From: an uncultured delta proteobacterium
GTDB taxonomy: Bacteria; Myxococcota_A; Polyangia; Fen-1088
Length of the DNA: 64,000 bases
Direction of reading: 5' to 3'
Assembly: GCA_963767925.1 (NCBI GenBank)
Contig: CAVYGB010000002.1
Location: 576,001 to 640,000 of the forward strand
Each line of letters begins with the position of its first letter. Within the stretch, counting starts at the first letter, position 1. The translations under genes and the position numbers were made by a program. The notes under the pieces were generated by a model. It was not told the origin of the DNA. It made no database searches and saw only the letters and a program-made list of their open reading frames with translations. Shown in pieces: positions 9,057 through 32,367 of the stretch.

Positions 9057-12173
<3,117 letters not shown>

Positions 12174-12333: not shown

Positions 12334-13302
12334 ATGGCCGCCCGTGTGCCGTCCGAAGCCCTCAACCCCGCGCAGCAGCGCGTGGTCGACCACGGAGACG
12401 GGCCGCTGCTGGTGGTGGCGGGCGCGGGATCGGGCAAGACGCACACGCTGGCCCACCGGGTGGCGGCGCTGGTCGCCCGGGGGGCCGACCCCCGGCGTGT
12501 CCTCCTGCTCACCTTCACCCGCCGGGCCGCGGCCGAGATGGTGCGCCGGGCGGCGCGCATCGCGGGGCTCGGCGGCAAGCACGACGGCCTCTGCTGGGCC
12601 GGCACCTTCCACGCCGTCGCCAACCGGCTGCTGCGCATCCACGCCCCCCGCCTGGGCCTCGACCCGGCGTTCACCTTGCTCGACCGGGAGGACGCCGCCG
12701 ACCTCATCGATCAGCTCCGTCACGAGCAGGGGCTGTCGCGCACCCACGAGCGTTTTCCCCGCAAGGGGACCTGCCTGGCGATCTACTCGCGCGTGGTCAA
12801 CACGCAGGTCCCGCTGCAGGCGTGCCTCGAGACAACATTCCCCTGGTGCCTGTCCTGGCACGATCCCCTGCGCGCGCTGTTCGCCGCCTATGTGGAGGCC
12901 AAGATCGAGCGCCAGGTGCTGGACTACGACGATCTGCTGCTCTACTGGTACCACCTCATGGGCGAGGCAGCCCTCGCCGCCGAGGTAGGCAGCAGGTTTT
13001 CCCACGTGCTCGTCGACGAGTACCAGGACACCAACACGCTGCAGGCGGAGATCCTGGCCCGGCTGCGGCCCGATGGCCGCGGCGTCACGGTGGTGGGCGA
13101 CGACGCCCAGGCCATCTATTCCTTTCGCGCCGCCACCATCCGCAACATCCTCGCCTTCCCCCAGGGGTTCGACCCGCCGGCGGCCGTGTACGCGCTCGAG
13201 CAGAACTACCGCTCGACCCAGCCCATCCTCGCCGCGGCCAACGCCGTCATCGCCCTCGCTTCCGAGCGCCGGGGCTCGGGGGGGCCGGGCCGCGCGAGTT
13301 GA
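12334..13302 (+). pseudogene. UvrD/Rep/PcrA-family helicase, 5' portion (truncated by island)
   Basis: LNPAQ, AGAGSGKT (Walker A), TFTRRAA, GTFH, VDEYQD, VGDDAQAIYSFR and LEQNYRS. Homology ends at 13270. Confidence 0.9.
12781..13270 (+). repeat. 490-bp direct repeat, left copy (internal helicase segment)
   Basis: Matches 26809..27298 apart from two synonymous differences seen by eye (CCG/CCC, GCT/GCC). Confidence 0.95.
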
Positions 13303-13366
13303 CATAGGACACGATATCGGTCGTCTACGTCCGCGCGCGTCATGCAGCGTGATTTTCCTATCATCC
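13269..13366 (+). repeat. 98-bp promoter-like module, copy A
   Basis: Near-identical to 26601..26698. Contains TTGACA (13299-13304), CGATATCG and ATGCAGCGTGATTTTCCTATCATCC. Confidence 0.9.
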
Positions 13367-13539
13367 GAAACCTACGACCCCGAACGGTTCATGGAGACCC
13401 TGGACAACTGGGGCTGGTTCGCCCGACCGTCCGAGGCGCCCCTGTGGTTCGCGGGCGGTTTCTACCGACGAGGCGGCGCTCCCTGACCGGGCGGCCGGCC
13501 GGCGCTGCGGGCGAACCCGGCCATCCCGACAACCGACTC

Positions 13540-13854
13540 CTACGACGGCGGTGACGGCTGGTCTTCCGGCGCGCGCCGTCTGGGCAGGTGGACGCCGTAG
13601 GCGCTGCCGGAGCCTTCCCGGACGACTATCAAGCTGAGGAGGGAGCCCGGAAAACCGAAGATGAACGCGAGGGCCCGCCAGCCGACGCTGGGGTGGTGCT
13701 GCGCCCGCATCCCGGCGTAGCTGACATTGGCCAGCATCCACAGCGCCGTCACGCCACTACGGCCGATCGAATCGCGCGCCCCCTGGTCCGCGGCATGGGC
13801 CATGGTTGTCCACAGCAACGGCAAGAGACCGGACAGGATCTGCATCCAACGCAT
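13540..13854 (-). CDS. small membrane protein
   Basis: Signal-like N-terminus (AHA) plus hydrophobic segments (WRALAFIFGFPGSLLSLIVV). Confidence 0.6.
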   Translation of the reverse strand: MRWMQILSGLLPLLWTTMAHAADQGARDSIGRSGVTALWMLANVSYAGMRAQHHPSVGWRALAFIFGFPGSLLSLIVVREGSGSAYGVHLPRRRAPEDQPSPPS

Positions 13855-13938
13855 GCTTCCGGCTATCACGCCGGCGGGGCCTCCGGGCAAGAAATTTTCA
13901 CGGATCGCGGCCCGCCCAACACGTTGACACTCTTTTTT

Positions 13939-15470
13939 GGCTCTCCGACAGAATCAGTGGGTGATCTGAGACCTCCTGGAGGCCGGTCGCGCCCGCCGCT
14001 CGCTGGATGATACGAGCGTGCGCGGGCGGGTAAAGGGTTCGCGCGGCGGCCGCGCCGGCGCAGCGCCGCCCTTGACCCACCCTGTGCGCGCTCTGCGATT
14101 GGCTGAGATGCGGCGGGCGGGGACGGACTGGGCGGCGACGGGCGAGGGAGAAAGTGGGTCCAACGCTTCCCGGGGCGGGTATCGTCCCGGTTTGCATGAA
14201 CCCGAAGGACCCGAGGTGCAAGTTAAGACGATCTTGAACCGATGTCACCGGTTCAAGTGCTTCGTGTACGGCGTCTGCTACTTGGGCGACGACGGCTCGA
14301 TAAACGTGGCGGTTCGTCCCCGCAAGGGGTCGGCGGCGGTGTGCTCAGGGTGCCAGCGGCCGGGCCGGTCTACGACACGAGCCGAGCACCGCGCGGCTTT
14401 GCCTTCGTGCCGCTGTGGGGCTTCGCCGTGTGGCTGTGGTACTGCATGCCGGGTCGACTGCGCCGAATGCGGCGTCACAGTCGAGGAGGTTCCGTGGGCT
14501 GATGGCAAGAACCCGACCTGCAACGCTTACCGCTTGTTTCTGGCCCGCTGGGCGCGACGACTACCCTGGAGCCAGGTCGCCCAGATCTTCAACAGCAGCT
14601 GGGGCGTGGTGTATCGAGCCATCCGGTGGGTGGTGGACTACGGCCTGGCCCACCGAGATTCCGACAGCGTCGAGGCCATCGGCGTCGACGAGATCGCCGT
14701 GTGGAAGGGTCACAAGTACCTCACCGTCGTGTACCAGATCGACCAGGGCGTTCGCCGGCTGCTTTGGGTCGGCAATGAGCGCACAGTCGAGAGCTTCCGT
14801 GGTTTCTTCGCGATGTTCGGCCAGACCCGCACCCTGGCCCTTCGCTTCGGTGCCAGCGAAATGTGGAAGCCCAACCTCGATGTCATCGCCGAGTTGGCTA
14901 GCCAGACCGTACACGTCCTGGACAGGTTTCACATCGTCGCCAACATGAACAAAGCCGTCGACGAGGTCCGCGCCGGGGAAGCCCGTGAGCTGGTGCGCCA
15001 AGGCTACGAGCCCATCCTCAAGCATTCGAGGTGGTGCTTTCTCAAGCGCCTTGGAGAACCTCAACGACGCCCAGCGGGCCAAGCTCGCCGACGTCCTCAA
15101 GTACGACCTAAGGTCGGTGCGTGCCTACCTGCTCAAGGAGAGCCTGCAGGCCTTCTGGAGATACACCACGGCCGGCGCGGCGGGCTGGTTCCTCGACAAG
15201 TGGTGCACCCGTGCGCTGCGCTCGCGCCTGGAGCCCATCAAGAAGGTCGCGCGTTCTCCGCGGGGCCACCGCGAGCTCATCCTCAACTGGTTCCGAGCGA
15301 AAAAGGAGATCTCCGCCGCCGCCGTCGAGGGTCTGAACGCCAACGTCAAACTCGCACTCAGAAAAGCTCGAGGCTTCCGCACCTTCCAGGTCCTCGAAAC
15401 CGCCCTCTATCACGAGCTCGGCCGGCTATCCGAGCTCCCAGAGATCACCCATAGATTCTGTTGAGGGGGC
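13939..15470 (+). mobile_element. ISL3-family insertion sequence (degenerate)
   Basis: Left IR ggctctccgacagaatcagtgggtgatct versus right IR reverse complement gccccctcaacagaatctatgggtgatct (22/29 match). T-tract on both flanks. Confidence 0.85.
14216..15464 (+). pseudogene. ISL3-family transposase with several frameshifts
   Basis: Zn-finger CSGC...CAEC, IGVDEI, LDRFHIV, and EGLNANVKLALRKARGFR in a second frame after ~15050. Confidence 0.9.
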
Positions 15471-15486
15471 TTTTTTTCAGGTTGCA

Positions 15487-17124
15487 ATGATTCCTCATTT
15501 GATGCTTCTACGCTCTCAGGCGTCCCGGACCTGGTTTCTTGGGCTGATGCTGGCCCATCTGGGCCTGATCTGGGCACTTCCCGTCCTGCCCGCTCAGGAC
15601 CTCCCGCAACATCTCACCTACGCAACCATCCTGCGCGACTACCAGCGCCCGGATAACTTGTTCCGGGAGTTTTACCAGCCCGATGGCGCCAACCAGAGCT
15701 ACTACACCACCTATCGTCTGCTGGTCGGCGCTGCCCGCTTCATAGCGGTCGAGGCCAGCGCGCGCCTGCTCTTTTCCGCCTACGTCATCGCCCTTTTCAT
15801 GTCCTTTCGCGCCCTGGTGCGCACCTGCGTCCCGCCGGGCGGGCCGGCGGCCCAGGCTACTCCGCTGCTCGCATCGCTGCTGGTATGGAATCCGGTCTCA
15901 TGCATGGGGTTTCTGGCCTTCCAGCTGGCGATTCCCGCGCTGCTGAGCGGCGTGGTCGCCTTCGTGCGCCTGGCCGAACGGGAGCAGGAAGTGTCCGTCC
16001 GAAACGCCTGGCCGCTGCTGGCCGCGACGGCCGTGATCGGTTCGTTGCATGTGGTGGCCAGCTGGCTTCTGCTGCTGTTCGCGGGCCTCTATACGGCCCT
16101 CAGCCCGCATCGGCGTCGTCTGCACGCTTTCCTGGTCTTGACCGGCGCAGTGGTCAACGTCACCGCCATCTGGGGCGCCCTCGGTGATGCGCAGATCGCT
16201 GGGCAGCAGGCGCTGGACCTCGCCTCACACGTGAAAAGCGCCTTCGCCTTCGAGTTCATAACCGAGGCTTTCCGCCTGACCTGGCGCGATCCCATCGCCA
16301 AGCTCGGCTACCTGCTCTGGAACGTATTAGGTCCTTTCCGCATCACCGGTCAGGTTCTTGTCGCAGGCGTGCTGCTGGCCGCCTACCTCATGCTGCGGCG
16401 TCCTCCCCGAGAAGCACCGACCGGCCCAACCGGCCTGCGCCGGGCTTTCACCCGTGCGACGCTGGCCCTGCTCGCTCTCAGCTGGCTGATTCCCTGGGGA
16501 ATCCACTTTCCATCCGAAGTGACCTTCCTGGACTTCCGGGTGATGGCGGTGGCCATCATCTTGCTCGCGGCGGTTCCGGATCTCCGCTGGCCGACGCCAA
16601 CCCGGGCGACGGCCCTGGTCGGAATCGCCTGCGCCATCTTGACCGTCCATTTCGGTGTGCGGGCGTTTGCGTTCGGCACCGAGGCCAGGAGTGCGCTCAC
16701 GCTGCTGGAGTCCGCCAGACCAGCTGGGGTGATGATGGGCCTGACGTTTTTTAACCGAAGCGACCACTTCGGCAAGCAGTTCCGGCAGTCTCACTTTCTG
16801 CCCCTCTACTACACGGTTCGCCACGGCGGGATCTCCACCCAGTTCTGGGCCCGCTATACCGACCACCTTCCAGTGGCCTATCGCCCAGGCAAGCGACCCT
16901 CCGCTCCACCGGACTGGCACCCCGGGGAGCTCCGGCCGGCTCATCTCGAGGGCCCGCTCGACTACGTGCTGCTTCAGCGAGCCACCCAGGACAACAGCAC
17001 CCGCGAGCAGCAGACTTCCGGGACCGTCGAGGCGATGCTGAAGACGCGGGCCGATCTGGTTAGCTGCGAAGGAATCTGGTGTCTCTATCGCACGCGTCGG
17101 GGTGGCGTGCCTAAGACACCCTGA
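15487..17124 (+). CDS. polytopic membrane protein, GT-C-like
   Basis: First-loop motif PAQDLPQHL, ~12 hydrophobic segments, soluble C-terminal domain. The true start may be ATG 15502. Confidence 0.7.
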   Translation: MIPHLMLLRSQASRTWFLGLMLAHLGLIWALPVLPAQDLPQHLTYATILRDYQRPDNLFREFYQPDGANQSYYTTYRLLVGAARFIAVEASARLLFSAYVIALFMSFRALVRTCVPPGGPAAQATPLLASLLVWNPVSCMGFLAFQLAIPALLSGVVAFVRLAEREQEVSVRNAWPLLAATAVIGSLHVVASWLLLLFAGLYTALSPHRRRLHAFLVLTGAVVNVTAIWGALGDAQIAGQQALDLASHVKSAFAFEFITEAFRLTWRDPIAKLGYLLWNVLGPFRITGQVLVAGVLLAAYLMLRRPPREAPTGPTGLRRAFTRATLALLALSWLIPWGIHFPSEVTFLDFRVMAVAIILLAAVPDLRWPTPTRATALVGIACAILTVHFGVRAFAFGTEARSALTLLESARPAGVMMGLTFFNRSDHFGKQFRQSHFLPLYYTVRHGGISTQFWARYTDHLPVAYRPGKRPSAPPDWHPGELRPAHLEGPLDYVLLQRATQDNSTREQQTSGTVEAMLKTRADLVSCEGIWCLYRTRRGGVPKTP

Positions 17125-18674
17125 GGCGCCGGGCTGGCGCTTGACCTCGTCCACCAGGCGTGGACCCACCTGACCCCGAGATAGGCGGCGAGCAACAAGG
17201 ACGGCAGGAAAACCACCGGGGTCCGCAGCGTCGAGTACTTCAAAGGATAGATGGCCAGCGCCAGACATGAGAACAGCACCGCCAGCTGGGTGGTGGCCCG
17301 TCGGCTGGCTATGGCGGAAAGGCACACGAACCAGGTGACGTACCAGGGCCAGAACCAGACCGCCAGCAGGCACACGGAGAACATGACCCAGGCGGCGGCA
17401 AGAACCGCCGTGGTCATCGTGGTCACCGAGATCGCTCCCAGGGCGATCGCCGCCAGCGAACCGGTGTTGGCCGCGGCGCGGGCGACCTCTCTGGTCCGGG
17501 AGCCATCCGGTCCCGCCATCATACGGCCGGCCGCGGGGGTCGCCTGACGCTTCTGCAACTCGAGGATGAGCGCCCCCACCGAGTTGGCGAGAAGCTTTTG
17601 CGGCGGGGACCCGGTCAGGACGGCGATGGTCCGCGAACCCTCCCAGAAGCGGCCGTAGAGAACGACGGTGGTGCAGGCGACGATGACCCCGATGCCGGCC
17701 AGCCGTATCCACCGCCGCCAGTCCGGTGGCGCCTCGCGTACCGCCACGATCACGTAGAAGAGTAGCGCCACCAGCGCGGTCCACTTGGTGAGCACCGCCA
17801 GCGTGAACATGACGACCGCCGTCTTCCAGCGTTGCTGATACCCCAGCCAGATTCCGACCAGCATGAGAAACAACATCATCACGTCGTTGTGGCCGTGTCC
17901 GACGAACTCGATCAACAACAGTGGGTTCAACAGATAGAGGAGCGTGCTGAAGGCCTGTCGGTCTGGCGCCACCCGTCCCACGATTTTCCAGATCAGGCCC
18001 GCGCTGCCACCGTGCAGGGCGGCCGCCACCAGCTTGAACAGCAGGACGTAGGTGATGATGGTGCCGCCCAGCCGCTCGGCCAGCCAGGTGACCCCCATTC
18101 CCAGATAGAGCCAGGCGGGCCCGTAGACGCTCGGCTCTCGCTTCCAGTGAACCCACTGCAGGAAGGGATCGGAGACGTACCGCACCGGAGACTCGAGCAG
18201 CGAATTCCCCCCGTGCACCAGGTCGATCCGCCCGTACATGATGTAGCTGTGGATGTCCCCGGAGAGCAGATTGGGCAGGGCGAGCAGGGGCGCGCTGGCC
18301 AGCCCCAGCATCCAGACGGCCGGGCGCAGCCGCCGCCGGGCCACATCGGACGAGCGCGAGCCCAGCAAGAGCCCCACGTATCCCAGCACGATGAGGGCCA
18401 GGGCTCCCGCCTGCCAGAGCTGAGCGCTGGTCACAGCGACGCCGGGGGCAGCCTGGAGCAGTTCCCGGGTCGTCGCCTCCGTGCCCTGCCGCCACGCCGG
18501 GTACTGGAAGAAGCTGTCCCAGATATGGCCGGGAGCCCAGGCCAGGCTCCTCAGCCGCATCACCAGGAACAGACCGAGATGACCGGCCAAAAAGCCGACC
18601 CCCGACACGAGGAAGCCGGACGGACGCGAGAGCCAGCGATCCGCCCGGGCCCGCGCTCGGCGAAGACGGTTCAC
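17085..18674 (-). CDS. GT-C glycosyltransferase, MptA/MptB-like (polyprenol-phosphate-sugar dependent)
   Basis: Motifs LLSGDIHSYIMYGRI, SVYGPAW, NPLLLIEFVGHGHNDVMM, LAVLTK and FWPWY. GTG start overlaps the DsbA stop (TAGTG). Confidence 0.85.
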   Translation of the reverse strand: MNRLRRARARADRWLSRPSGFLVSGVGFLAGHLGLFLVMRLRSLAWAPGHIWDSFFQYPAWRQGTEATTRELLQAAPGVAVTSAQLWQAGALALIVLGYVGLLLGSRSSDVARRRLRPAVWMLGLASAPLLALPNLLSGDIHSYIMYGRIDLVHGGNSLLESPVRYVSDPFLQWVHWKREPSVYGPAWLYLGMGVTWLAERLGGTIITYVLLFKLVAAALHGGSAGLIWKIVGRVAPDRQAFSTLLYLLNPLLLIEFVGHGHNDVMMLFLMLVGIWLGYQQRWKTAVVMFTLAVLTKWTALVALLFYVIVAVREAPPDWRRWIRLAGIGVIVACTTVVLYGRFWEGSRTIAVLTGSPPQKLLANSVGALILELQKRQATPAAGRMMAGPDGSRTREVARAAANTGSLAAIALGAISVTTMTTAVLAAAWVMFSVCLLAVWFWPWYVTWFVCLSAIASRRATTQLAVLFSCLALAIYPLKYSTLRTPVVFLPSLLLAAYLGVRWVHAWWTRSSASPAPQGVLGTPPRRVR

Positions 18675-20005
18675 TAGTTCTGCGCCTTGCGACTGGCGCC
18701 TTCTGCCTCGGGGGCTTCCGTCGCGACCTTGTTCGCCCCGCCGCCGGCCCTGGCCAGAGCCTTCTCCACCAGCATCCGGAGGGCCCAATACGGCGCCGGG
18801 CCTTCTACCCGGCTCCCGTTGATGAAGATCGTCGGCGTCGTCGTCACTCCCAACGCGCGGGCCTGCCCGACATCGGTCAGGACCCGGCTGCGCGCCTGCA
18901 CGTCGGGGCCGCCCGAGGCAGGCAGAGCCAATCCGAGGGCTTCGGCATGGCGTTCGATATCGACGGGCGACTGCGAGATCTGATTGAGGAACAGGTGGTC
19001 GTGCATCTGCCAGAACTTGCCCTGACTCCTCGCTCGCTCGGCCACCTCCGCGGTGCGAAGTGCATCCTGGTCGGTTTCCCCGGGAAAATGCTTGTAAGTG
19101 AGGCGGACGCTGGATCCGTAGGCATCGATGATCCGCTTCAGAGTCCCCGCCATGCGCGCCGATTCACCCGACCTGAAGTCGGCAAACTCCACGATGGTCA
19201 CCAGAGGACGTTCCGCACCCGTCCAGGGACTGTCCCCGGTATCGACCGGAACCGGGCTCTTCATCCGATCCTCCAGCCGGGCCTGTACCCGGGCCAGCTC
19301 ATGGGACAGCAAGGGATCGGGGGGGACCAGCACACGGTACAGGTCGTCCGGATAGCTCGCGCCGGGATGATGACGCTGCACCCGCAGCAGTTCTTCCTCC
19401 ACGACCTTCGACAGCTCTTCGAAGGGGATGGTTCCCGCGACCCGGCGGCCATTCACGAAGAACATGGGAACCTCGTTGAGGGCCAGGCGTCCGCCCCATT
19501 CGATGTCGTCCTCCAACCGCGCCCAGGTCGCATTCGATTGCAGGTCAGCGAAGAACCTGCCCGTATCCATCCCCAGCACGGTGGCCGCCCCGACAATCAC
19601 CTCGCGGCTGGCATCATTCCCCGCGCTGAGCAGCTTCTCATAGAGCTGCAATCCCTGACCCTGACCGCCAGCCGCAATGGCCGCATGGGCCACCAGGCGC
19701 GAGGACTTGTGTCCAGGGAACGGGAAGTGTCGGAGCGACACCCGCACGTCCCTGGGCTTTGCGGCGACCAGGCGTTTCGCGCCGTCGAAGGCCTTCTGGC
19801 AGGGCGGACAATCGCTGTCGCTGTAGAGGATCAAGGTGACCGGCGCGTTCGAAGGGCCAGCGTTGATGTCGGCGATCGGGACGTGGACGCGGGCGATGGC
19901 CACTTCTGACCCGGCGCCGGTGCGCAAGAGCTTGATGAGCCCGTACCCGGCGAAGATCGAGGCCAGGACCGCAGCTGAAGTTGCAATCACATTTTTCATC
20001 ATCAT
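18674..20005 (-). CDS. membrane-anchored tandem DsbA/thioredoxin-fold protein
   Basis: Domain 1 has DCPPC, HFPF and VPMFFVNG. Domain 2 has IVEFADFRSGES, KHFP and TPTIFING. N-terminal TM; ATGA overlap with the upstream gene. Confidence 0.9.
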   Translation of the reverse strand: MMMKNVIATSAAVLASIFAGYGLIKLLRTGAGSEVAIARVHVPIADINAGPSNAPVTLILYSDSDCPPCQKAFDGAKRLVAAKPRDVRVSLRHFPFPGHKSSRLVAHAAIAAGGQGQGLQLYEKLLSAGNDASREVIVGAATVLGMDTGRFFADLQSNATWARLEDDIEWGGRLALNEVPMFFVNGRRVAGTIPFEELSKVVEEELLRVQRHHPGASYPDDLYRVLVPPDPLLSHELARVQARLEDRMKSPVPVDTGDSPWTGAERPLVTIVEFADFRSGESARMAGTLKRIIDAYGSSVRLTYKHFPGETDQDALRTAEVAERARSQGKFWQMHDHLFLNQISQSPVDIERHAEALGLALPASGGPDVQARSRVLTDVGQARALGVTTTPTIFINGSRVEGPAPYWALRMLVEKALARAGGGANKVATEAPEAEGASRKAQN

Positions 20006-20961
20006 TTTTCACCAAACAACGCTTTGTCGAATGTCGGTTGTTGCAAGGAAAACAATCTCACCGCACGCCGCACCTCACGCGCAGACAGCAGCAGCAGCGG
20101 CGCTGGCGCATATGCGAACCAGAACAGAAATGGAACTTCGAAGGCCACAATGATGGAGAGGAAAAAGGCCTGGTAGACCACCGTCGCCCAGAGCCGGGTG
20201 CGTCTCCAGGCGATGGCCAAGGGAAGGGTCAGCTCCAGCAAGACGGTTGCCCAGTTGGCAACGACCGCCACCCCGGGCCACCGCAGGAGCCCCAACTCGA
20301 CCAGCCATCCGCGCACGACAAAGCCGGCGGGGTAGTCGGCCAGCTGGTGAAACCCTCCCTGGAGCGGCCAGCCGGCCGTCAGCTTTTCGACTCCCGCGAA
20401 GAACAGCGAGACGAGAACCAGGCCACTCAGCAGCAGGGCTCCAACCTGGTCGGCGGTGGGTCCCGACGCCGCCGGGAGCGAGCGACCGTCGTGGCCGGCG
20501 GGAGGTGAGTCCCCGTCAGTCTTCTTCCGATCGAGCAAGGAACGCAGGGATAGGGCCTGGTCGGTCGTGACGAAGATGAGGACCGGCAAGAGAATCCAGA
20601 TCGTCTCGAGGGCCAGGGTTCCGACGCTCAAGGCATTCATCGAGGCGAAGAAATACAGGCCCACCAGCGAAACTGCGGCGCACAGGCGGGTGCAAAGACC
20701 GAGCGCCCCTCCCAGGCAGGCCAACATGGTCAGGGCCACCAGAGGCATCACCAGCGTCAGGGGCAGCCGGGCGGCGAGGTCATGGAGGGTGGCGTTGTAT
20801 TGACCGATGCGAAAGGCGTCCCGGCCGAAATTCTCGTCGAAGGCGAAAAACGCCGGAAAATAGTGGACGATCACCCCGCTGAAGAAGAACGCCCGGAACA
20901 GGCCCAGCGCCCGCGCGCGAACTTGCCGGTCAGGACTGGTCGATTGTCGAAAGAGATCCAT
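20002..20961 (-). CDS. HTTM-domain membrane protein (SdpB / vitamin K-dependent gamma-carboxylase-like)
   Basis: Motifs LGLFR, LGLCTR, ALSLRSLL, FFAGVEKLTAGW..G and LELTLPLAIAWRRTR. Confidence 0.8.
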   Translation of the reverse strand: MDLFRQSTSPDRQVRARALGLFRAFFFSGVIVHYFPAFFAFDENFGRDAFRIGQYNATLHDLAARLPLTLVMPLVALTMLACLGGALGLCTRLCAAVSLVGLYFFASMNALSVGTLALETIWILLPVLIFVTTDQALSLRSLLDRKKTDGDSPPAGHDGRSLPAASGPTADQVGALLLSGLVLVSLFFAGVEKLTAGWPLQGGFHQLADYPAGFVVRGWLVELGLLRWPGVAVVANWATVLLELTLPLAIAWRRTRLWATVVYQAFFLSIIVAFEVPFLFWFAYAPAPLLLLSAREVRRAVRLFSLQQPTFDKALFGEK

Positions 20962-21391
20962 TCCAGCACCTGAAAAGCTCGCGTCGGTCGCGGTCCTCAC
21001 GCTCCAGATTTCGCCAGGTCAGCTCGAGGTGGGCGCCCTGCAGGTCCGGTCGTCGGCGACACAGCGACTCCAGATAGGGGCGGGCAGCCTTCATCAGGTT
21101 GAGCGCCAGGCGACTCTGGTGAAAACCTGCGGTCCGCGTGTCCACCAACTCCTGGACAGAGCGGAGCTGCGTTTCGTTCGCCGGCCTGAAGCGCGCAAAG
21201 GGCACCAGTTCGTGAAGCCGGGCGAACATCAGGAACCCGATCGAACGGTGAACGAAGGGGAGAGAAGGAAGCCGGTCCTGCCAGGCGGGCGGCAGAAAGG
21301 TGGTCTTCACCGCCATGACCAGGAACAACCCGAACCAGCACGCCGCCGCGATCATGGGCAGCTGAGCTCGAACGGTTCGCAGGGAAGGCAT
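20930..21391 (-). CDS. SdpA/DUF5819-like partner of HTTM protein
   Basis: One N-terminal TM, GFLMFA (WxMFA-like) motif, YLESLCRR...FRC Cys pair; sits directly upstream of the HTTM gene. GGAG precedes ATG 21391 (alternative start 21439). Confidence 0.6.
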   Translation of the reverse strand: MPSLRTVRAQLPMIAAACWFGLFLVMAVKTTFLPPAWQDRLPSLPFVHRSIGFLMFARLHELVPFARFRPANETQLRSVQELVDTRTAGFHQSRLALNLMKAARPYLESLCRRRPDLQGAHLELTWRNLEREDRDRRELFRCWNGSLSTIDQS

Positions 21392-21411
21392 CCAGGTCTC
21401 CGCGGGTTCGA

Positions 21412-22059
21412 TCAACGCGGGTTCAGGCCCGGTAAACATGCGAGGGCGCCCTGGGTCCTGACCCGGACCCGGTCACTGCCCTGGTAGGCGTCCGGGAACT
21501 CATGGTCCGGGGCGGGTTCGGCCGCCCTGAGCGTGGAGGCCCGCAGGGCGAAGCAGTCCAGGGCCTGGGGAGGAAGCGTCAGATTGCCCAGAACGCGCTC
21601 GAGGACGATGTTGGAAAGACTGGCCTTGTATTCGGTGGCATTGATGTCCACCCGGAAGATCAGGTCGACGCTGGCGGCGCTGTCCGGCGGCCAGCAGGGC
21701 TCCAGGCGGTCGACCAGCGCCAGCTCGATTGCGTTGCGTAGAGCCGCCGCTCTCCTCGAAATCTCGTATTTGCTCTCCACGATCATCTCGTCCAGGGGGC
21801 CGAGCTCGACAGCGGTTTCCGACGCCTTCGCCGAGCTGATCACCTCCAGCGCTCCCCGCAACTGATCAGCCGTCGGGCGAGACACCGGTCCTTCGGCGGG
21901 AAGCGGGCGGGAATCCTCGGTCGGGGCGGGGGCGGCCGAAGCCAAGGGAGCCGGCCCGTCCGGGGCGGGATGACCCCTCAGCATGACCAGTCTCGTCAGG
22001 ACAAACGCCGTCGTGAGAGGCAGCGCCGTGATCAGCAGCAGCGAGGCAAGTGGTCGCAT
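21412..22059 (-). CDS. membrane-anchored protein with possible TonB-C/AgmX-like C-terminal domain
   Basis: N-terminal TM, Pro-rich linker, LEPCW...LDCF Cys pair. Starts 10 nt after the upstream stop. Confidence 0.6.
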   Translation of the reverse strand: MRPLASLLLITALPLTTAFVLTRLVMLRGHPAPDGPAPLASAAPAPTEDSRPLPAEGPVSRPTADQLRGALEVISSAKASETAVELGPLDEMIVESKYEISRRAAALRNAIELALVDRLEPCWPPDSAASVDLIFRVDINATEYKASLSNIVLERVLGNLTLPPQALDCFALRASTLRAAEPAPDHEFPDAYQGSDRVRVRTQGALACLPGLNPR

Positions 22060-22069
22060 GGGTCTGGCC

Positions 22070-22747
22070 TCAGATGGGCGGTATGGGTGGAAAATCCGTG
22101 GGGCGGAACGTCTCGCGGCTACGCAGCGTCTCCAGGTCGGTCTGGCGCGCCTTCTGATACCAGGCTCGGTAGTCATCGGGCGCGCGGTGGCTCGCGCTGA
22201 AAACGAGGGTCAGACAGGTGCTGGCCCCACCATTTTGCAGTCTGGAATTCGGCCCGAAGTGCACGGTGTCGGCCAGGGGGACGTAGGCCGCCAGACGGCG
22301 CGCTTTGGTCAAGTAGCTCAGGTCGTCCGCCTCCATGCACAGTCGACAGGTCATCGTGCGGCAGTCGACATCGGACAGCCGCGCGCCGGGCAGGACGGCG
22401 GCAAAGTCCCGGGTCAGGGTCTCCTTCACTGACTGCTCGATGCGCGAGGCCCAGACGTCGTCGCGGCCCTCCTTGTCGTAGAGCTCACCCGGCCGCATCG
22501 ACAGCTTGACCAGCTTGTTCGCGTCGTAGTCGGGGGCGCGATGGTCGAGCGTCAGTGTCTTCTTCGCGGAAACTGGAGGCACGAACTTCGGAACCGTCTT
22601 CGGTCTTTCGCGGGCGGCTATCTCCGCCGCGGGTTTGCCGCTTCCGACGTCACCGCCAGCCCAAGGAGGCCGCGGCGTCAACCACCAGGCCAGGCAGATC
22701 CCCACCAGCGTGCAGGCAGCCGCCAGCACCAACTTGCGTCTGTTCAT
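22070..22747 (-). CDS. membrane-anchored hypothetical protein with CxxxxC motif
   Basis: MNRRKLVLAAACTLVGICLAWW anchor; RDDVWASRIE...VDCRTMTCRL. Confidence 0.75.
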   Translation of the reverse strand: MNRRKLVLAAACTLVGICLAWWLTPRPPWAGGDVGSGKPAAEIAARERPKTVPKFVPPVSAKKTLTLDHRAPDYDANKLVKLSMRPGELYDKEGRDDVWASRIEQSVKETLTRDFAAVLPGARLSDVDCRTMTCRLCMEADDLSYLTKARRLAAYVPLADTVHFGPNSRLQNGGASTCLTLVFSASHRAPDDYRAWYQKARQTDLETLRSRETFRPTDFPPIPPI

Positions 22748-22772
22748 GGTCGTCACCACGTCCGAGGTCGCG

Positions 22773-22809
22773 GCCGTGAGGGCCTCGATGGGGGCCGAGT
22801 CCTCACGGC
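22773..22809 (-). terminator. intergenic stem-loop after peptide gene (attenuator or mRNA stabiliser)
   Basis: Perfect 9-bp stem gccgtgagg/cctcacggc plus inner ctcg/cgag; no U-tract. Confidence 0.55.
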
Positions 22810-22822
22810 GTTGCGAGTTGAA

Positions 22823-23107
22823 TTAGGTTCCTGATCCCTCGTCGCAGCCGGACACTTCCTTGCAGCTGTTGCAGGTCAGAAGATCGAACGGGCCGCAGGG
22901 GTTCGTCTCCATCGTGCAGCTCTTCTGCGTCGATTCCGGACCGTTGCAGTCACAGCCCGCGGTGCAGAACTGGCATCGCTCCCAGGTGCTGCAACCGGCT
23001 TCGGCGGGCGCTCCCACAGCCAGTCCGCCTCTGCTCGTGTCGATCGACGCCACAAAGGCGCCCAGGGCAATCCCGAGGACAGACAGGACCAGAGTCACTT
23101 TTTTCAT
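22823..23107 (-). CDS. secreted Cys-rich peptide (94 aa; predicted 57-aa mature part with 10 Cys)
   Basis: AGGA RBS, MKKVTLVLSVLGIALGAFVA signal, then AEA followed by GCSTWERCQFCTAGCDCNGPESTQKSCTMETNPCGPFDLLTCNSCKEVSGCDEGSGT. Confidence 0.85.
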   Translation of the reverse strand: MKKVTLVLSVLGIALGAFVASIDTSRGGLAVGAPAEAGCSTWERCQFCTAGCDCNGPESTQKSCTMETNPCGPFDLLTCNSCKEVSGCDEGSGT

Positions 23108-23492
23108 GTGCTTTCCTATCGCAGGTGGTCGTTGATGAACTGGCACGTAAAAACAACGCGCCTGATTAGAGAATAGAGACCGTGCCCACGACGCTGTCTA
23201 CCAAAGATTCATGGATTGCCGCTTAAGGCGGGAGTCTGACCGGCCCGACAGCATAAAATAGATCGTAATTACATGGACTTATGACGAGAGCCTGGACGTG
23301 CAAAAAATTGCCGCCTGAGAGGCCCCTGCGCTCTGTCGACCACGAGAAGAGGGCTACTGCCAATAGGTCTGTGCCCATCCGCATACCCGTGCGTCGGCGT
23401 CAAGGGGGCGTGGATAGAGGACTGAATGCCGTCAGCAACGCTTCGCGTCTCGAATAAGCGGGGCCTGAAATTGACCCGACAGGGACGAGTCC

Positions 23493-24764
23493 TCAGGCGG
23501 GCTGGGGCTCTCTACGTCCCAGCGGGCCCCAGAGGTGCCCGGCGGTGGCCACCGCCAGAAAGGGCAGGACCCAGAGCAGGTAGTTCCGGTGCACGATCCC
23601 GCTGCCCAGGAAGAGAAGCACCAGCGTCTGGGACACCAGGGCGGCGATGGCGGCGGGCGTGTGGGGCCGGGGCGAGCGCAGGTGGCGCCAGATCAGGAAT
23701 CCGATCCCCAGGACGGTCGCCGCGCTGACGACCAGTCGGGCGGCGGGCGGCAGGAAGAAGGCTAGGCTGGTGGAGTCGGGGCGCCGTGAAAGCTGGAACA
23801 GGAGGATGCCAGCGATCAGCTCGCGCGGGGAGGTCAGCAGGGAGGGCAGGTAGCAGGCGATCGAGACGGCCCCGGCCACCGCGAGAGCCCGCCACCGGCC
23901 CCGCCAGGTCGACGGTCCCGCCGACGCCGACGGCGCGAGCAGCAGCGGAACCGCCAGCAGCAGACCGGGCAACAGCTTGGCGCCGATGCTCGCTCCGATC
24001 AGGGCCGCTGAGAGGAGGGGGCGATTCCGGCTGCGCGCGGCGAACGCCAGCAGCCCGAGCGCCACCGGGACCGCGTCGTTCACCCCGGCCTGGAAGAGCT
24101 CCTTGTGAACGAATCCGGGAACCAGGACCAGAAGGGCAGCCCCCAGCCCGGCGGTCAGACCGCCCCGGTCGGCGGCCCACAGGCCCGCGCCCGCCGCCAT
24201 CAGCCCGTAGGCCACGACGGTCGTCGCGAAGTACCCGGCCAGGCCCGCCCCGAGGACACCCGGCGCGTAGGCCCAGATCATCATCGGTCCGTACTTGAAG
24301 CCGCCGTAAAAGGCGAAACCCGAGCCGCCGGGATTCTCCCGCGCCCCCAGGCGGTCCATGAAAAGCTCGTAGGGCGAAAGGCCACGCGCCCACAGCTCGA
24401 CCGCCCGGATGGTCGTCTGGCCGATGTCCACCGTCGGCATGCGCGCGTCCAGCACGACCGCGCCCGCCTGCACCAGACGCCAGGCCAGGAGCATCCCCAG
24501 GGCGACGGCCAGCGCCGCCACTAGCCCGGGCAGGGGCCGGGGCTCCCGCTCGCGCAGAGCGGTCACCAGCATCAGCACCCCGCCCAGCATCAGGGCCCGC
24601 TCCACGCCCCGACCCCAGTCCGCCCAGGCCAGGGCGAAAAACCCGACGAAGAAGCCGACCAGCGGCAGCAGCACCCCCAGCGCGAAGGTCCGGGCTTCGC
24701 CGGCAACCGATGTGGCCACCGGCGGCCAGAAGGTTCGCGAGTTGACCGGCGCCCGCGCGCTCAC
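23493..24764 (-). CDS. GT87/DUF2029-like GT-C glycosyltransferase
   Basis: PTVDIG loop Asp, FKYGP, GVNDAVP, GASIGAKLLP and NYLLW motifs; GTGA overlap with the upstream stop. Confidence 0.75.
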   Translation of the reverse strand: MSARAPVNSRTFWPPVATSVAGEARTFALGVLLPLVGFFVGFFALAWADWGRGVERALMLGGVLMLVTALREREPRPLPGLVAALAVALGMLLAWRLVQAGAVVLDARMPTVDIGQTTIRAVELWARGLSPYELFMDRLGARENPGGSGFAFYGGFKYGPMMIWAYAPGVLGAGLAGYFATTVVAYGLMAAGAGLWAADRGGLTAGLGAALLVLVPGFVHKELFQAGVNDAVPVALGLLAFAARSRNRPLLSAALIGASIGAKLLPGLLLAVPLLLAPSASAGPSTWRGRWRALAVAGAVSIACYLPSLLTSPRELIAGILLFQLSRRPDSTSLAFFLPPAARLVVSAATVLGIGFLIWRHLRSPRPHTPAAIAALVSQTLVLLFLGSGIVHRNYLLWVLPFLAVATAGHLWGPLGRREPQPA

Positions 24765-26458
24765 GACCGACCCGTGGCCAGGTCGGTGGACAGAGCCACC
24801 TGACGGTGGCGGGCCCACCAGGCGCGGGCCCACCTGACCCCGAAGTAGAGCGTCAGCAGCATGGTGGGAACGAACACCACCACCGTGCGCAGGTACGAAT
24901 ACCTCAGGGGATAGATGACCAGCCCCAGGGAGGAGAAGAGGACCCCGAGTTGCATGAGCGCCCGGCTACCCGTCAGCGGAACCAGACTCAGGGACCAGGT
25001 CGCGTACCAGGGCCAGAACCACACCGCCAGCAGGCAGACGAAGAACAGGACCCAGGCGGCCGCCGCGACCGCCGCGCTCATCGAGGTCACCGTTGCCGCC
25101 CCCAGCGCCAGCGCCACCAGAGTCGCCGTCTGGCTGATGTCACGTACCACCGTCTTGTCCCGGTAATTTTCCGGTCCCGGCATCACGCCCATGCGGTACC
25201 CTCGGGCGGGGCGGCCATCGCCTGGACCGTGCGGCGCGGAACCGGGGCCAGCATTCCGTCCGGACCCACCAGCGCGCGTTGCACGCCCTTGCGCCGATCG
25301 ACGATCAGCGCTCACCGAGTTCGCCATCATCTTCTGCGGCGGCGACCGGGTGAGCATGGCGAACGAGTCCGGCCCCCCCCAGAAGCGAGCGTAGAGCGCG
25401 ACAGTGGTGAGCGCCACCAGCATGCCGGCTTCCGCCAGCCGCGCCCACCGCCGCCAGTCGGCAGGGGCCTCCCGCGCCACCACGATGAGGTAAAAGAGCA
25501 GCGCCACCAGGGCGGTCCATTTCGTGACCACCGCCAGGGTGAACGCCACCACCGCCACCGGCCAGTGCTTCTGGTACCCCAGCCCGACCCCCAACAGCAT
25601 CAGGAACACCATCATGGCGTCGTTGTGCCCCTGTCCCACGAACTCGATCAGCGCCAGGGGATTGATCAGATAAAAGAGTGTGCCGAAAGCCTGCCTCTCG
25701 GGCGCCACCCGCCCCAGGATCTTCCAGATCAGGCCCGCGCTGCCAAAGTGCAGGGCGGTGGGCAGGAGCTTGAACAGCAGGGTGTAGACGATGATGGTGC
25801 CGCCCAGCCGCTCGGCCAGCCACGTCACCCCCATGCCGACGTAGAACCAGGCCGGCCCATAGACGCTCGGTTCGCGTTTCCAGTGGACCCAGGGCAAGAA
25901 GGAATCAGAGACGTAGCGCGACGGCGCTTCGAGCAGCGAGTTGCCCCCGTGCAGCAGGTCGATGCGCCCATACATGATGTAGCTGTGGATGTGGCCCGAC
26001 AGCAGGTTGGGCAGCACCAGCAGGATCGCGCTCGCCAGCCCGGCCAGCCAGACGACGCTGGGTAGCCGGCGCCGGGAGAGCGCGGGGGTGAGCGAGCCCA
26101 GCAGGATCCCGACGTACCCGAGCACGATCACCATCAGGCTTCCCAGCTGCAAGAGCTGCTCGCCCGTCACGGCGATCCCCGGGGCGGCCTGCAGCAACGC
26201 CCGGGCACCGAACTCCGTGCCGTGTCGCCACTTCGGGTAGTCGAAGAAGCTGTCCAGGATGTGGCCGGGAGCCCAGGCCAGGGTCCTGGACCGCATCACC
26301 AGGAAAAAGAGGAGATGGCCGGTCAGAAAGACCGCCGCCGACACGGCGAAGCCCGGCCGTCCCGAGAGCCATCGGACCATCCGCTCCCTGACCGAAGTTG
26401 AACGGGTCGCTCCGGAAGGACTGTCTGCTGGGCTCAAGAGATCACCTAGGGTTCGCAT
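24761..26458 (-). CDS. second MptA/MptB-like GT-C glycosyltransferase, paralog of 17085..18674
   Basis: Clearly alignable paralog (LAWAPGHI, YGRIDL, WVHWKREPSVYGPAW, GHND, FWPWY). Has SGHIHSY instead of SGDIHSY, and a possibly off-frame patch at ~25200-25310. Confidence 0.8.
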   Translation of the reverse strand: MRTLGDLLSPADSPSGATRSTSVRERMVRWLSGRPGFAVSAAVFLTGHLLFFLVMRSRTLAWAPGHILDSFFDYPKWRHGTEFGARALLQAAPGIAVTGEQLLQLGSLMVIVLGYVGILLGSLTPALSRRRLPSVVWLAGLASAILLVLPNLLSGHIHSYIMYGRIDLLHGGNSLLEAPSRYVSDSFLPWVHWKREPSVYGPAWFYVGMGVTWLAERLGGTIIVYTLLFKLLPTALHFGSAGLIWKILGRVAPERQAFGTLFYLINPLALIEFVGQGHNDAMMVFLMLLGVGLGYQKHWPVAVVAFTLAVVTKWTALVALLFYLIVVAREAPADWRRWARLAEAGMLVALTTVALYARFWGGPDSFAMLTRSPPQKMMANSVSADRRSAQGRATRAGGSGRNAGPGSAPHGPGDGRPARGYRMGVMPGPENYRDKTVVRDISQTATLVALALGAATVTSMSAAVAAAAWVLFFVCLLAVWFWPWYATWSLSLVPLTGSRALMQLGVLFSSLGLVIYPLRYSYLRTVVVFVPTMLLTLYFGVRWARAWWARHRQVALSTDLATGRS

Positions 26459-26600
26459 AAATCAAAAAAGATGCTGCGGGACAAATAATGAGGTCTCTTG
26501 CGACAGGCATGTCCATGGAAAAGGGCGGCCCTTTCGAGCTCGTGCGATCTCCCTCACGCCGCGCGCGGGAGCGGGCGGGTGCCGATACGGATAGAACGCC

Positions 26601-26698
26601 CCGGGGCTCGGGGGGGGCCGGGCCGCGCGAGTTGACATAGACACGATATCGGTCGTCTACGTCCGCACGCGTCATGCAGCTTGATTTTCCTATCATCC
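26601..26698 (+). repeat. 98-bp promoter-like module, copy B
   Basis: Near-identical to 13269..13366. TTGACA at 26632-26637, ATG at 26674. Confidence 0.9.
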
Positions 26699-28394
26699 CA
26701 TCGCCTCCGGGTCGACCAGCTTGGTCCCCAGGGGCGGCATCTGCAGCAGCGGGTGGCGCGTGCGCATGTTCGCCAGGTGCTGAGGGTGGTGACCAAGGCC
26801 TCGATGCAATCTACTCGCGCGTGGTCAACACGCAGGTCCCCCTGCAGGCGTGCCTCGAGACAACATTCCCCTGGTGCCTGTCCTGGCACGATCCCCTGCG
26901 CGCGCTGTTCGCCGCCTATGTGGAGGCCAAGATCGAGCGCCAGGTGCTGGACTACGACGATCTGCTGCTCTACTGGTACCACCTCATGGGCGAGGCAGCC
27001 CTCGCCGCCGAGGTAGGCAGCAGGTTTTCCCACGTGCTCGTCGACGAGTACCAGGACACCAACACGCTGCAGGCGGAGATCCTGGCCCGGCTGCGGCCCG
27101 ATGGCCGCGGCGTCACGGTGGTGGGCGACGACGCCCAGGCCATCTATTCCTTTCGCGCCGCCACCATCCGCAACATCCTCGCCTTCCCCCAGGGGTTCGA
27201 CCCGCCGGCGGCCGTGTACGCGCTCGAGCAGAACTACCGCTCGACCCAGCCCATCCTCGCCGCGGCCAACGCCGTCATCGCCCTCGCCTCCGAGCGCCAC
27301 GCCAAGGAGCTGTTCTCCACCCGCCCCGGCGGACAGCGCCCGCGGCTGGTCACGGTGGCCGACGAGATCGCCGAGGTCGACTACGTCGTCGGGCGCATCC
27401 TCGAGCGGCGCGAGACCGGTGTGCCCCTGCGCCAGCAGGCGGTGCTCTTCCGGGCCGCCCACCACAGCGATCTGCTGGAGGTGGAGCTCGGCCGCCGCAA
27501 CATCCCCTTCGTGAAGTACGGAGGCCTGCGCTTCCTGGAGGCGGCCCACGTCAAGGACATGCTGGCCGTCCTGCGCTGGGCGGAGAACCCCCGCGACGCG
27601 CTGGCCGGCTTCCGCGTGGCCCAGCTCCTGCCCGGCGTCGGCCCCCAGACCGCCGCCCGGCTGTGCGCGGAGCTGGCGGCGGCCAGCGTCGGCACGCGCG
27701 AGGCGCTGGCCGGCTGGAGCCCGCCGCCGGCTGCCCGCGCCGACTGGCCCGCCTTCGTCGATCTGTACGCCCGGCTGTGCGACGTCGCCACCCCCTGGGC
27801 CGGCCAGCTGGGCCTGGTCCGCCGCTGGTACGAGCCGCACCTCGATCGAATCTACGACAACGCCCGCGTGCGGCTGGGCGACCTGGAGCAGCTCGAGCAG
27901 CTGGCCGCCGCCGCGCCCTCGCGGGAGCGCTTCCTGTCGGACCTGGCGCTCGATCCCCCGAGGCCACGGGCGCCGAGGCGGGCCCGCCCCACCTCGACGA
28001 GGATCACCTCGTCCTTTCGACGGTCCACTCGGCCAAGGGGCAGGAGTGGGACTCGGTGTTCGTGCTCCACGTGGCCGACGGCTGCTTCCCCTCCGACCTG
28101 GCGACGGGGAGCCCCGACCAGATCGAGGAGGAGCGGCGGCTGCTCTACGTGGCGATGACCCGGGCCAAGAACCTGCTCGAGCTGGTGCACCCGCTGCGCT
28201 TCTTCATCCGCCAGCAGGCCCGCCGGGGCGACCGCCACGTTTTCACGCCGCGCACGCGCTTCATCCCCGAAGCGATCCTGGACCGCTTCGAGCGCACCTC
28301 CCCGATCCTCGAGCTCCCGAGCAACGACGTGGCGCCGGGGTCGGCCCCGCCGGCCGTGGACGTGGCCGGACGCTTGCGCGCCTCCTGGCGCTGA
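26674..28394 (+). pseudogene. UvrD/Rep helicase 3' portion with chimeric N-terminus; frameshift at C5 run 27955-27959
   Basis: DEYQD, NYRS and AVLFR in one frame; STVHSAKGQEW and EERRLLYVAMTRAK in the next frame. Lacks Walker A. Confidence 0.85.
26809..27298 (+). repeat. 490-bp direct repeat, right copy
   Basis: Matches 12781..13270. Confidence 0.95.
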
Positions 28395-32050: not shown

Positions 32051-32105
32051 CCGCCCGGCTGTCACGACCGCTGACGGGGGGCGGACCGGTCCCGCCCGGC
32101 CCTAT

Positions 32106-32273: not shown

Positions 32274-32367
32274 GATCGATCGTTGTGAGTGAAGGGTCCG
32301 TCCTTCTCTGCCCTGCCGGGTGTTGTGTCCGATCGCAACCAGCTGGCGTCAGCTACAGCCGCCGGGG

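What the first reader, a model, noticed from the sequence alone, without database searches (positions are those of the whole stretch)
12334..28394. Integrase-free island formed by insertion-duplication in a UvrD-family helicase gene
Seen: the helicase 5' part runs through a 490-bp segment X (12781-13270), then ~13.5 kb of cargo, then X again (26809-27298) and the 3' part. The copies differ at two synonymous sites. No recombinase gene or tRNA target is visible. Known: single-crossover integration of a circle carrying an internal gene fragment gives exactly this structure and leaves two truncated genes. Inference: the cargo arrived as, or can excise as, a RecA-dependent 14,028-bp circle. Excision would restore the helicase, so helicase integrity and cargo presence would be reversibly coupled, and amplification is also possible.
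Basis: partly seen in the sequence, partly recalled or inferred. Interest (0 to 1): 0.72.

Follow-up and report, generated by a model that had tools for sequence, protein, structure and literature searches.

The report
Jumping-gene ends built helicase-splitting island
A 13.5-kb block of accessory genes splits a DNA helicase gene between two copies of a 490-base piece of that gene, and it is also bracketed by two 95-base ends of a rolling-circle jumping gene that resemble the chromosome's own untangling site, so it likely arrived as a circle captured by those ends and then recombined in, as known for resistance genes on plasmids.

Summary
The 490-bp repeat X (12781-13270, 26809-27298) is real, with two synonymous differences and a third at the junction. 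Y is a transposase-less oriIS end of an IS91/ISCR rolling-circle element. An end motif learned only from 41 transposase-adjacent ends ranks Y2 3rd of 18.7 million positions; a two-block model ranks Y1 first. Y also mimics the chromosome's dif site; the Y copies are the genome's only other close matches. The right junction is a mosaic: Y2, a foreign gene fragment, 35 bp of ileS, X. The cargo holds a passenger ISL3, so 'no recombinase gene' is not strictly true.

Best reading: oriIS-driven capture linked helicase DNA to the cargo, and a circle recombined into another strain's intact allele, as in the ISCR1 complex-integron model. Excision restoring the helicase is possible but unshown; no read bridges a junction, and no IS91 transposase was found in this 84%-complete assembly. 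The scan noted dif-mimicking IS91 ends before in other genomes. New variant of a known kind.

The parts
9057..12173 (-). ileS, intact host gene; bases 9990-10024 are the source of the 35-bp patch at the right junction
12334..13270 (+). 5' part of a UvrD/PcrA-like helicase gene (ORF runs on into Y1 and stops at 13302)
12781..13270 (+). X1, left copy of the 490-bp internal helicase segment
13271..13365 (+). Y1, 95-bp transposase-less IS91/ISCR right end: G-rich hairpin (13273-13291), dif-like site, oriIS end motif ending 4 nt after CCTAT; 2-4 nt of microhomology with the end of X
13297..13324 (+). dif-like site in Y1: 11+6+11 layout, 5 mismatches in the 22 arm bases against the chromosome's own site
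13366..13486 (+). W, last ~40 codons of a gene of an unnamed family (aligned homologues 51-217 aa), cut at the end of Y1
13540..13890 (-). small membrane-protein ORF (116 aa); a homologue lies among unrelated genes in the same-genus genome
13939..15469 (+). ISL3-family IS, frameshifted, with its own 8-bp target duplication (one T short on the left); a passenger inside the cargo; 86% copy on contig C4
15487..26458 (.). cargo: three GT87/MptA-like membrane glycosyltransferase genes, a 545-aa membrane protein, a double DsbA-like protein, an HTTM protein, three unnamed proteins and a small Cys-rich peptide with a signal-like N-terminus; the whole insert is 66.2% G+C against 72.6% in the flanks
26603..26697 (+). 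Y2, second copy of the IS91/ISCR end; best end motif, but its dif-like site (26630-26656) has a 5-bp centre
26698..26772 (-). Z, ~75-bp fragment near the 3' end of a foreign gene (MPPLG-motif family), cut at the end of Y2; no other copy in the assembly
26773..26807 (+). 35-bp copy of ileS 9990-10024 (34 of 35), collinear with X; joined to X at a 2-3 nt microhomology
26809..27298 (+). X2, right copy of the 490-bp segment; not followed by Y
27299..28394 (+). 3' part of the helicase gene, well conserved, one frameshift in a C run at 27955-27959 (likely sequencing error)

Best explanation
The island is a cargo block bracketed by two transposase-less IS91/ISCR origin ends (Y) and by two copies of a helicase segment (X), and it likely entered by rolling-circle capture followed by homologous recombination. 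Shown: X and Y repeats, the identity of Y as an oriIS-type end with a dif-like site, genes cut at the right ends of Y, the ileS patch, the passenger ISL3. Inferred order: (1) a mini-element Y landed in the helicase gene of a donor strain after base 13270; (2) a transposase acting in trans started at its origin, ran past its left end and copied the DNA to the left, probably as far as ileS 9990 (3,281 bp), and joined it to gene W beside the cargo; (3) the stretch from Z round to Y2 closed into a circle, by rolling-circle release at Y2 or by a microhomology join; (4) RecA crossed the circle into an intact, Y-free allele of another strain, leaving X twice; (5) a 2,756-bp deletion cut the right-hand copy down to 35 bp of ileS plus X, before or after step 4. 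Predicted consequences: X-by-X crossover would release 14,028 bp and rebuild the helicase; Y-by-Y release would remove 13,332 bp and leave it broken.
For: Y as an IS91/ISCR end: multi-copy IS91-family elements of the class stop 4 nt after a CCTAT-like core, and both Y copies diverge 4-5 nt after CCTAT. A Gibbs motif learned without Y from 41 non-redundant transposase-downstream regions (82 loci given, 49 usable) ranks Y2 3rd and Y1 229th of 18,673,440 positions. A two-block model ranks Y1 1st (35.1 bits; best controls 27.2, 23.6, 21.0) and Y2 5th. Y1 has the same 65-nt box-to-end spacing as transposase-adjacent ends L132, L147 and L162 of the same family. The ISCR1 origin has the same TTCCTAT+4 end (PMC13023784). 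IS91-family transposases occur in 151 of 251 class genomes and 27 of 36 family genomes. An 82-bp right end suffices with transposase in trans, with no target duplication and 1-14% read-through (PMC13181058). IS801 makes miniature right-end fragments and carries off 290-1,431 bp of flanking gene (PMC3189936). Genes W and Z are cut at the ends of Y. Allelic origin of X: 3 of 3 differences synonymous, the rarer codon on the junction side in 2 of 3, and no Y after X2. The circle-plus-recombination model is published for ISCR1 and the integron 3'-CS.
Against: No IS91 transposase was found in the assembly (PF04986, PF14319 and a custom HMM; 84% complete, and the PF04986 control rang nowhere). A gapped profile of 9 ends gave Y only E 6-7, no better than a reversed-genome control. 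The upstream box of the two-block model was noticed after seeing Y, so that block is not fully independent. The short end motif alone is not diagnostic: none of the 17 family hits lay near a transposase and many look coding. Target tetranucleotides of this subgroup vary, so they give no support. Y has no full-length homologue in 301 class or 401 phylum genomes. At six other repeat-flanked inserts of this genome the best end-motif score was 10.0 bits, against 13.0 and 20.7 here, so the lineage also makes such duplications without Y. The left neighbour of the captured piece is Z, not the missing half of W, so an extra join must be assumed. No read bridges a junction.
Confidence: 0.6

Rival explanations
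1. Repair scar. A broken or stalled chromosome was mended by microhomology-guided template switching or Ku-dependent end joining, which copied the cargo and short patches (Y, Z, ileS35) and re-entered upstream, duplicating X. Y was only a passive end of the donor DNA.
For: All junctions whose two sources are known show 2-4 nt of microhomology. Two Ku genes are present. A 2.55-kb low-G+C insert between an MFS gene and cysK has a 72-bp duplication and a decayed upstream patch at its right junction, no oriIS signal, and an empty site in the same-genus genome. A CRISPR repeat in this genome is split by a similar insert with a 15-bp duplication.
Against: It does not explain why one oriIS sits exactly at the host-cargo boundary, why both Y copies end at the predicted nick position against cut genes, or why all three X differences are synonymous (0.016).
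Confidence: 0.17
2. Two steps through Y. The helicase first received a small scar (X-Y-Z-ileS35-X). A 13,332-bp cargo circle carrying its own Y then entered at that Y, by RecA or by the host's XerCD acting on the dif-like sites.
For: The Y copies are direct repeats bracketing the cargo, differ more (4 changes in 95 bp) than the X copies, and are the only dif-like sites besides dif itself. xerD is present. 7 of 41 transposase-adjacent ends carry such a site against 4 of 4,100 shuffles. An oriIS 'sandwich' is described for ISCR28 (PMC12772301).
Against: Y1 has 4 mismatches in one 11-bp arm and a different 6-bp centre; Y2 has a 5-bp centre. xerC was not found above its cut-off. The first scar still needs the steps of the best explanation.
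Confidence: 0.12
3. Assembly artefact. The assembler stitched a separate circle, or a second strain's locus, into the chromosome through the 490-bp repeat.
For: The assembly has indel errors (rpoB in pieces) and 5% contamination. X differences look allelic. No listed contig bridges a junction.
Against: Contigs reach 3.3 Mb, which implies reads far longer than 490 bp (inference). Strand polarity of the GGGNAGGG octamer does not switch at the locus. In one run, listed flank pieces (3) and cargo pieces (5) match at 99-100% at similar depth, 2.5-4.6 (this run may be the source sample and 22 more pieces were not shown). The junctions carry biological signatures, which even an artefact would have to draw from a real molecule.
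Confidence: 0.1

Closest known systems
ISCR1 complex class 1 integrons (oriIS-initiated circle rescued by recombination into the 3'-CS; PMC13023784, section 2.2 read)
   Same: An oriIS end of about 100 bp, capture of unrelated genes, a circle carrying part of the target, and entry by homologous recombination that leaves the target piece twice, with unstable copy number.
   Different: No transposase gene in the unit, two oriIS ends, a chromosomal helicase gene as target rather than an integron, both target copies truncated, no resistance cargo, and a dif-like site in the end.
One-ended transposition and miniature right-end derivatives of IS91/IS801/IS1294 (PMC13181058 and PMC3189936, passages read); ISCR28 oriIS 'sandwich' (as cited in PMC12772301, passage read; primary paper not seen)
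   Same: Short right ends that work with transposase in trans, no target duplication, neighbouring gene fragments carried along, two successive oriIS around cargo.
   Different: Y is shorter (95 bp) than the 229-679-nt IS801 miniatures; no fixed target tetranucleotide was seen in this subgroup; here the product was followed by recombination into the source gene.
Unconventional circularizable structures (UCS; definition in PMC8401462, passage read) and the recombinase-free H47 island of E. coli (PMC5426353, passages read)
   Same: About 13-15 kb of cargo, no integrase, long direct repeats that allow release as a circle.
   Different: Circle formation is their defining, tested feature and is untested here; their repeats are not described there as an internal piece of a split host gene; no oriIS is described for them in the passages read.
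pdif modules of Acinetobacter plasmids (PMC9771954, passages read)
   Same: Cargo between two dif-like sites with the 11+6+11 layout.
   Different: Here the sites are direct, not inverted, are part of an IS91 end, lie on the chromosome and look decayed.
Excision switches that restore a host gene (skin in sigK, A118 prophage in comK, SpyCI at mutL; recalled, no call)
   Same: Removal of the insert would rebuild a DNA-metabolism gene.
   Different: Those use a dedicated, regulated site-specific recombinase and short att sites; none is present here.

Membership tests
IS91/ISCR family (Y as oriIS end) | Conserved right-end motif, with the element ending 4 nt after the CCTAT core | tested here: met
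   ISCR1 22-mer
IS91/ISCR family (Y as oriIS end) | HUH Y2 transposase gene upstream of oriIS | tested here: not met
   none in the island or the assembly; Y is at most a non-autonomous derivative
IS91/ISCR family (Y as oriIS end) | No target-site duplication at the element's ends | tested here: met
   flanks of Y1 and Y2 share only 1-4 nt with the element ends
IS91/ISCR family (Y as oriIS end) | terIS: tetranucleotide plus adjacent hairpin at the left end | tested here: inconclusive
   7-bp hairpin right after CCGG; one family element also starts with CCGG; a G-rich hairpin could be chance
IS91/ISCR family (Y as oriIS end) | Specific target tetranucleotide next to oriIS | tested here: inconclusive
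   CGAA and CCAT keep the conserved T on the other strand, but training ends vary widely
IS91/ISCR family (Y as oriIS end) | Nicking and transfer by the transposase | not testable with these tools
   needs an assay
ISCR1-type recombination-rescued circle | Target segment duplicated on both sides of oriIS plus cargo | tested here: met
   X1-Y1-cargo-Y2-X2
ISCR1-type recombination-rescued circle | Class 1 integron 3'-CS as target and a complete ISCR in the unit | tested here: not met
   target is a helicase gene; no transposase
Unconventional circularizable structure | Long direct repeats and no own site-specific recombinase | tested here: met
   490-bp repeats; no tyrosine or serine recombinase among the scanned cargo ORFs; the ISL3 DDE gene is an internal passenger
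Unconventional circularizable structure | Circular form and empty site detected | tested here: inconclusive
   only short low-depth contigs were available; no joint listed at 97% identity
XerCD dif/pdif module | Two 11+6+11 sites resembling the host's dif | tested here: inconclusive
   Y1 meets the layout with 5 of 22 mismatches; Y2 has a 5-bp centre; host site placed by single copy and octamer polarity switch
XerCD dif/pdif module | Recombination by XerC and XerD | not testable with these tools
   xerD found, xerC not above cut-off
Integrase-encoding genomic island or prophage | Integrase at one end and short att repeats, often in a tRNA | tested here: not met
   a true example in this genome has a 48-bp tRNA-Val repeat
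Long-duplication DDE elements (IS1634/IS1549 type; recalled) | Transposase and inverted repeats directly inside the long duplication | tested here: not met
   the only DDE element is internal with its own 8-bp duplication; no terminal inverted repeats among the 25 longest listed

The most novel reading that the evidence does not exclude
A 95-bp transposase-less IS91 end with a dif mimic works as a portable gene-capture hub that, by copying a piece of the host gene it lands in, builds islands aimed back at that gene in sister strains. The nested repeats then give the cell two exits with opposite results: RecA at X releases the glycosylation cargo and rebuilds the helicase, whereas host XerCD or the transposase at Y drops the cargo and leaves the helicase broken, so surface type and DNA repair switch together with no integrase.
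Probability: 0.15. Interest if true: 0.8.

Novelty: new variant of a known kind. Interest (0 to 1): 0.5.

Why it matters
The ISCR route (capture at a rolling-circle origin, then recombination) is known mainly from resistance genes on clinical plasmids. This locus suggests the same route builds chromosomal islands in a high-G+C soil lineage, with only a 95-bp end left as a trace. Island finders keyed on integrases, tRNAs or transposases would miss it. It also supplies a testable case for whether dif-like sites in IS91 ends are used by XerCD; four paper searches that combined IS91 or ISCR with dif, Xer or oriIS terms (listings only, plus passages of two hits) showed no paper describing that, in an open-access library only. 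The reversible helicase switch would be more striking but is unshown.

Tried and rejected
Y as promoter of a fused, separately expressed C-terminal helicase: an ATG at 26674 is in frame with the 3' half, but the promoter scan found no site in Y (2 sites in 16.6 kb, shuffles 1.3); left open at low odds. Y as a known RNA: no Rfam hit in 8000-33000. Y as an integrase fragment: tblastx against the genome gave only low-complexity hits. Y elsewhere: nothing for a 21-22-base core in metagenome contigs, no full-length match in 301 class or 401 phylum genomes, two chance hits in plasmids. A 19-base end pattern gave 28 metagenome and 24 genome loci. Many look like coding chance hits; a few (L184, L195, L197 twice) share upstream sequence and diverge 3-5 nt after CCTAT, but none of the 52 had a transposase by my HMM, and they were picked with Y, so they were not used for training. 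A first motif search on 33 mixed loci found an unrelated internal motif. A first two-block run had a wrong box length and is void (redone). The gapped profile was not significant. A third motif copy at C2:1423901 has no dif-like box and was set aside. Reading Z on into the DNA left of Y2 gives a plausible but imperfect gene end: weak. Reads: runs X2 and X3 hold next to none of the words; the joints seen at 85% identity come from other organisms. No same-species genome was available for the empty site; relatives' orthologues are not next to ileS. The ISL3 as cause of the duplication: rejected. The main ISCR review could not be read. No supplements were read; those of PMC13181058 may list more oriIS ends.
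Full report
Observation. The repeat X is as described: 490 bp, 12781-13270 and 26809-27298, 14,028 bp apart, two substitutions, plus one more at 12780/26808. All three are synonymous third positions. The left side encodes the N-terminal UvrD-helicase domain and the right side the UvrD_C domains; neither reaches an NCBIfam cut-off, and PcrA is the best label. Intact orthologues of 688-736 aa were read in 4 of 5 fetched relative loci, none beside ileS. Both halves align with them without decay apart from one frameshift in a C run. rpoB is also frameshifted in this assembly, so that break is probably a sequencing error. The insert is 66.2% G+C against 72.6%. One cargo glycosyltransferase matched 1 of 88 other family genomes, and the HTTM gene 4 of 200 other class genomes and 0 of 26 in the family. 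The Cys-rich peptide found only itself. The cargo is accessory; a role in surface glycosylation or peptide export is inferred from the domain names only.

The order is X1, Y1, W, small ORF, ISL3, cargo genes, Y2, Z, ileS35, X2. Y is a 95-bp repeat with two copies in the genome. W is the last 40 codons of a gene family and starts at the end of Y1. Z is about 75 bp of a gene that relatives carry whole, cut at the end of Y2 and absent elsewhere in the assembly. ileS35 copies 9990-10024. It lies on the same strand and in the same order as X, so ileS35 plus X reads as a 3,281-bp host segment with 2,756 bp removed at a short microhomology (inference). The ISL3 has its own 8-bp target duplication and is a passenger.

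Y is an IS91/ISCR origin end. The lead was a recalled motif, then tested. TTTTCCTAT occurs three times in 9.3 Mb, twice as the end of Y. The ISCR1 origin ends in TTCCTAT plus four bases (PMC13023784, passages and section 2.2). IS91-family transposases occur in 151 of 251 class genomes. Where copies could be compared, several elements end 4 nt after such a core. A Gibbs search on 41 non-redundant regions downstream of long-form transposases (82 loci given, 49 usable), run without Y, returned this end motif in 2 of 8 starts with the top score. It ranks Y2 3rd and Y1 229th of 18,673,440 positions. Adding an upstream box from 8 transposase-adjacent ends ranks Y1 first at 35.1 bits, above the best of three controls (27.2, 23.6, 21.0), and Y2 fifth at 21.0, which is within control range. 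That box was spotted by comparison with Y, so only the first block is independent. A gapped profile was not significant (E 6-7). Y1 has the same 65-nt spacing as three family ends. No transposase was found in this 84%-complete assembly; the same-genus genome has a remnant.

The upstream box is a dif mimic. Earlier scan notes on other genomes suggested this reading. The box pattern occurs in 54 of 89 family genomes, mostly once, and never in the reversed control. This genome's conserved copy at C8:1558595 lies 7 kb from the point where the polarity of the GGGNAGGG octamer (recalled as the FtsK-orienting word) flips, which marks it as dif. The only other sites within 5 mismatches of its arms are the two Y copies. 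7 of 41 transposase-adjacent ends carry such a site, against 4 of 4,100 shuffles; all 7 come from genomes of this family (handles). Y1 keeps the 11+6+11 layout with 5 mismatches; Y2 has a 5-bp centre. xerD is present and xerC was not found above cut-off. Use by Xer is untested.

How it most likely arose. Published work shows that an 82-bp right end moves with transposase in trans, leaves no target duplication and often runs past its left end (PMC13181058, passages). IS801 makes miniature right ends and carries off flanking gene pieces (PMC3189936, passages). ISCR1 circles recombine into a shared segment and duplicate it. Applied here: Y landed in a donor's helicase, copied the DNA to its left into the cargo region, the unit closed into a circle, and RecA (present) crossed it into an intact allele. 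X2 has no Y after it, so the recipient allele differed from the donor's. The differences between the X copies fit: 3 of 3 synonymous (0.016), the rare codon on the junction side in two, and all within 34 bp of the ends around 446 identical bases (0.003 if uniform, a test chosen after seeing the data). One of the three lies at the junction and may have been made there. The order of steps is inferred; how Z came to sit beside ileS35 is the weakest link.

Against and rivals. This genome makes repeat-flanked inserts without oriIS as well: a 72-bp duplication at an MFS gene with an empty site in the same-genus genome, and others found in a genome-wide list of 441 two-copy repeats, most of which are paralogues, tandem repeats or mobile elements. 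Six such loci scored at most 10.0 bits near their junctions. Ku is present twice. A repair scar therefore stays possible (0.17), as does entry through Y (0.12). An artefact (0.10) is not excluded: one soil run holds flank and cargo pieces at similar low depth but none listed bridges a junction, and it may be the source sample.

The reversible switch. Crossover between the X copies would rebuild the gene; release between the Y copies (13,332 bp) would not. Both halves look undecayed, which fits either recent arrival or continued use. No circle or empty site was seen, no regulator or dedicated recombinase is present, and two other UvrD-like genes exist. I treat it as a passive property, not a shown switch.

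Verdict. Real structure, mechanism of a known kind (ISCR-type capture and recombination rescue; UCS-like in outcome, PMC8401462 and PMC5426353, passages), in a new setting: a chromosomal gene, transposase-less 95-bp ends with a dif mimic, nested repeats. New variant of a known kind; interest 0.5.

Noticed in passing
L042:2117-4815 (G000:C2:1275616-1278314): 2.55-kb low-G+C insert with a 72-bp perfect duplication of an MFS gene end and a decayed upstream piece of the same gene at the right junction; no recombinase seen; cargo has a Cys-rich peptide and a relative of the 229-aa cargo protein; empty site in the same-genus genome.
   Followed up: partly
L043:3062-6276 (G000:C2:2246561-2249775): WYL-like gene end repeated as 61 bp plus 250 bp (112 bp missing) around two cargo genes; related pieces on contig C5.
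   Followed up: partly
G000:C8:1558595-1558622: Single-copy dif-type site 7 kb from the octamer polarity switch on C8; the chromosome's likely dif. The origin-type switch lies near C2:1.31 Mb.
   Followed up: yes
G000:C2:1012218-1012476: Two outward-facing oriIS-like ends about 250 bp apart, one with a decayed dif-like box; another solo IS91 remnant.
   Followed up: partly
L109, L141, L145, L162, L172, L240, L241: Family IS91 elements whose right ends carry a close copy of the family's dif site, 48-84 nt from the end.
   Followed up: partly
L184, L195, L197 (metagenome contigs): Solo repeats of about 100-130 bp between unrelated genes that share Y's last 19 bases and a dif-like box; no transposase nearby.
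   Followed up: partly
L081-L105: Short-form IS91 transposases of this class share a conserved ~22-bp motif about 250 bp downstream that recalls integron attC sites (recalled label).
   Followed up: no
G000:C2:757480-759700 and C2:1420015-1420960: attC-like sites with toxin-antitoxin-like cassettes, suggesting cassette arrays without a nearby integrase (labels from reading, not from a family scan).
   Followed up: no
window 26674-27959: An ATG inside Y2 is in frame with the 3' helicase through Z and ileS35, giving a fused ORF with all C-terminal domains; no promoter match found.
   Followed up: partly
window 31872-32709 and 41873-42010: Palindromic repeat element with 37-bp internal repeats between genes, with a further copy at 41.9 kb; MITE- or REP-like.
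   Followed up: no
G000:C12:52796-55757: Paralogues (35%) of two cargo genes lie together on another contig, pointing to a related cluster.
   Followed up: no
window 9057-12173: ileS is of the long type-2 form, the group that includes mupirocin-resistant enzymes, below their cut-off.
   Followed up: no
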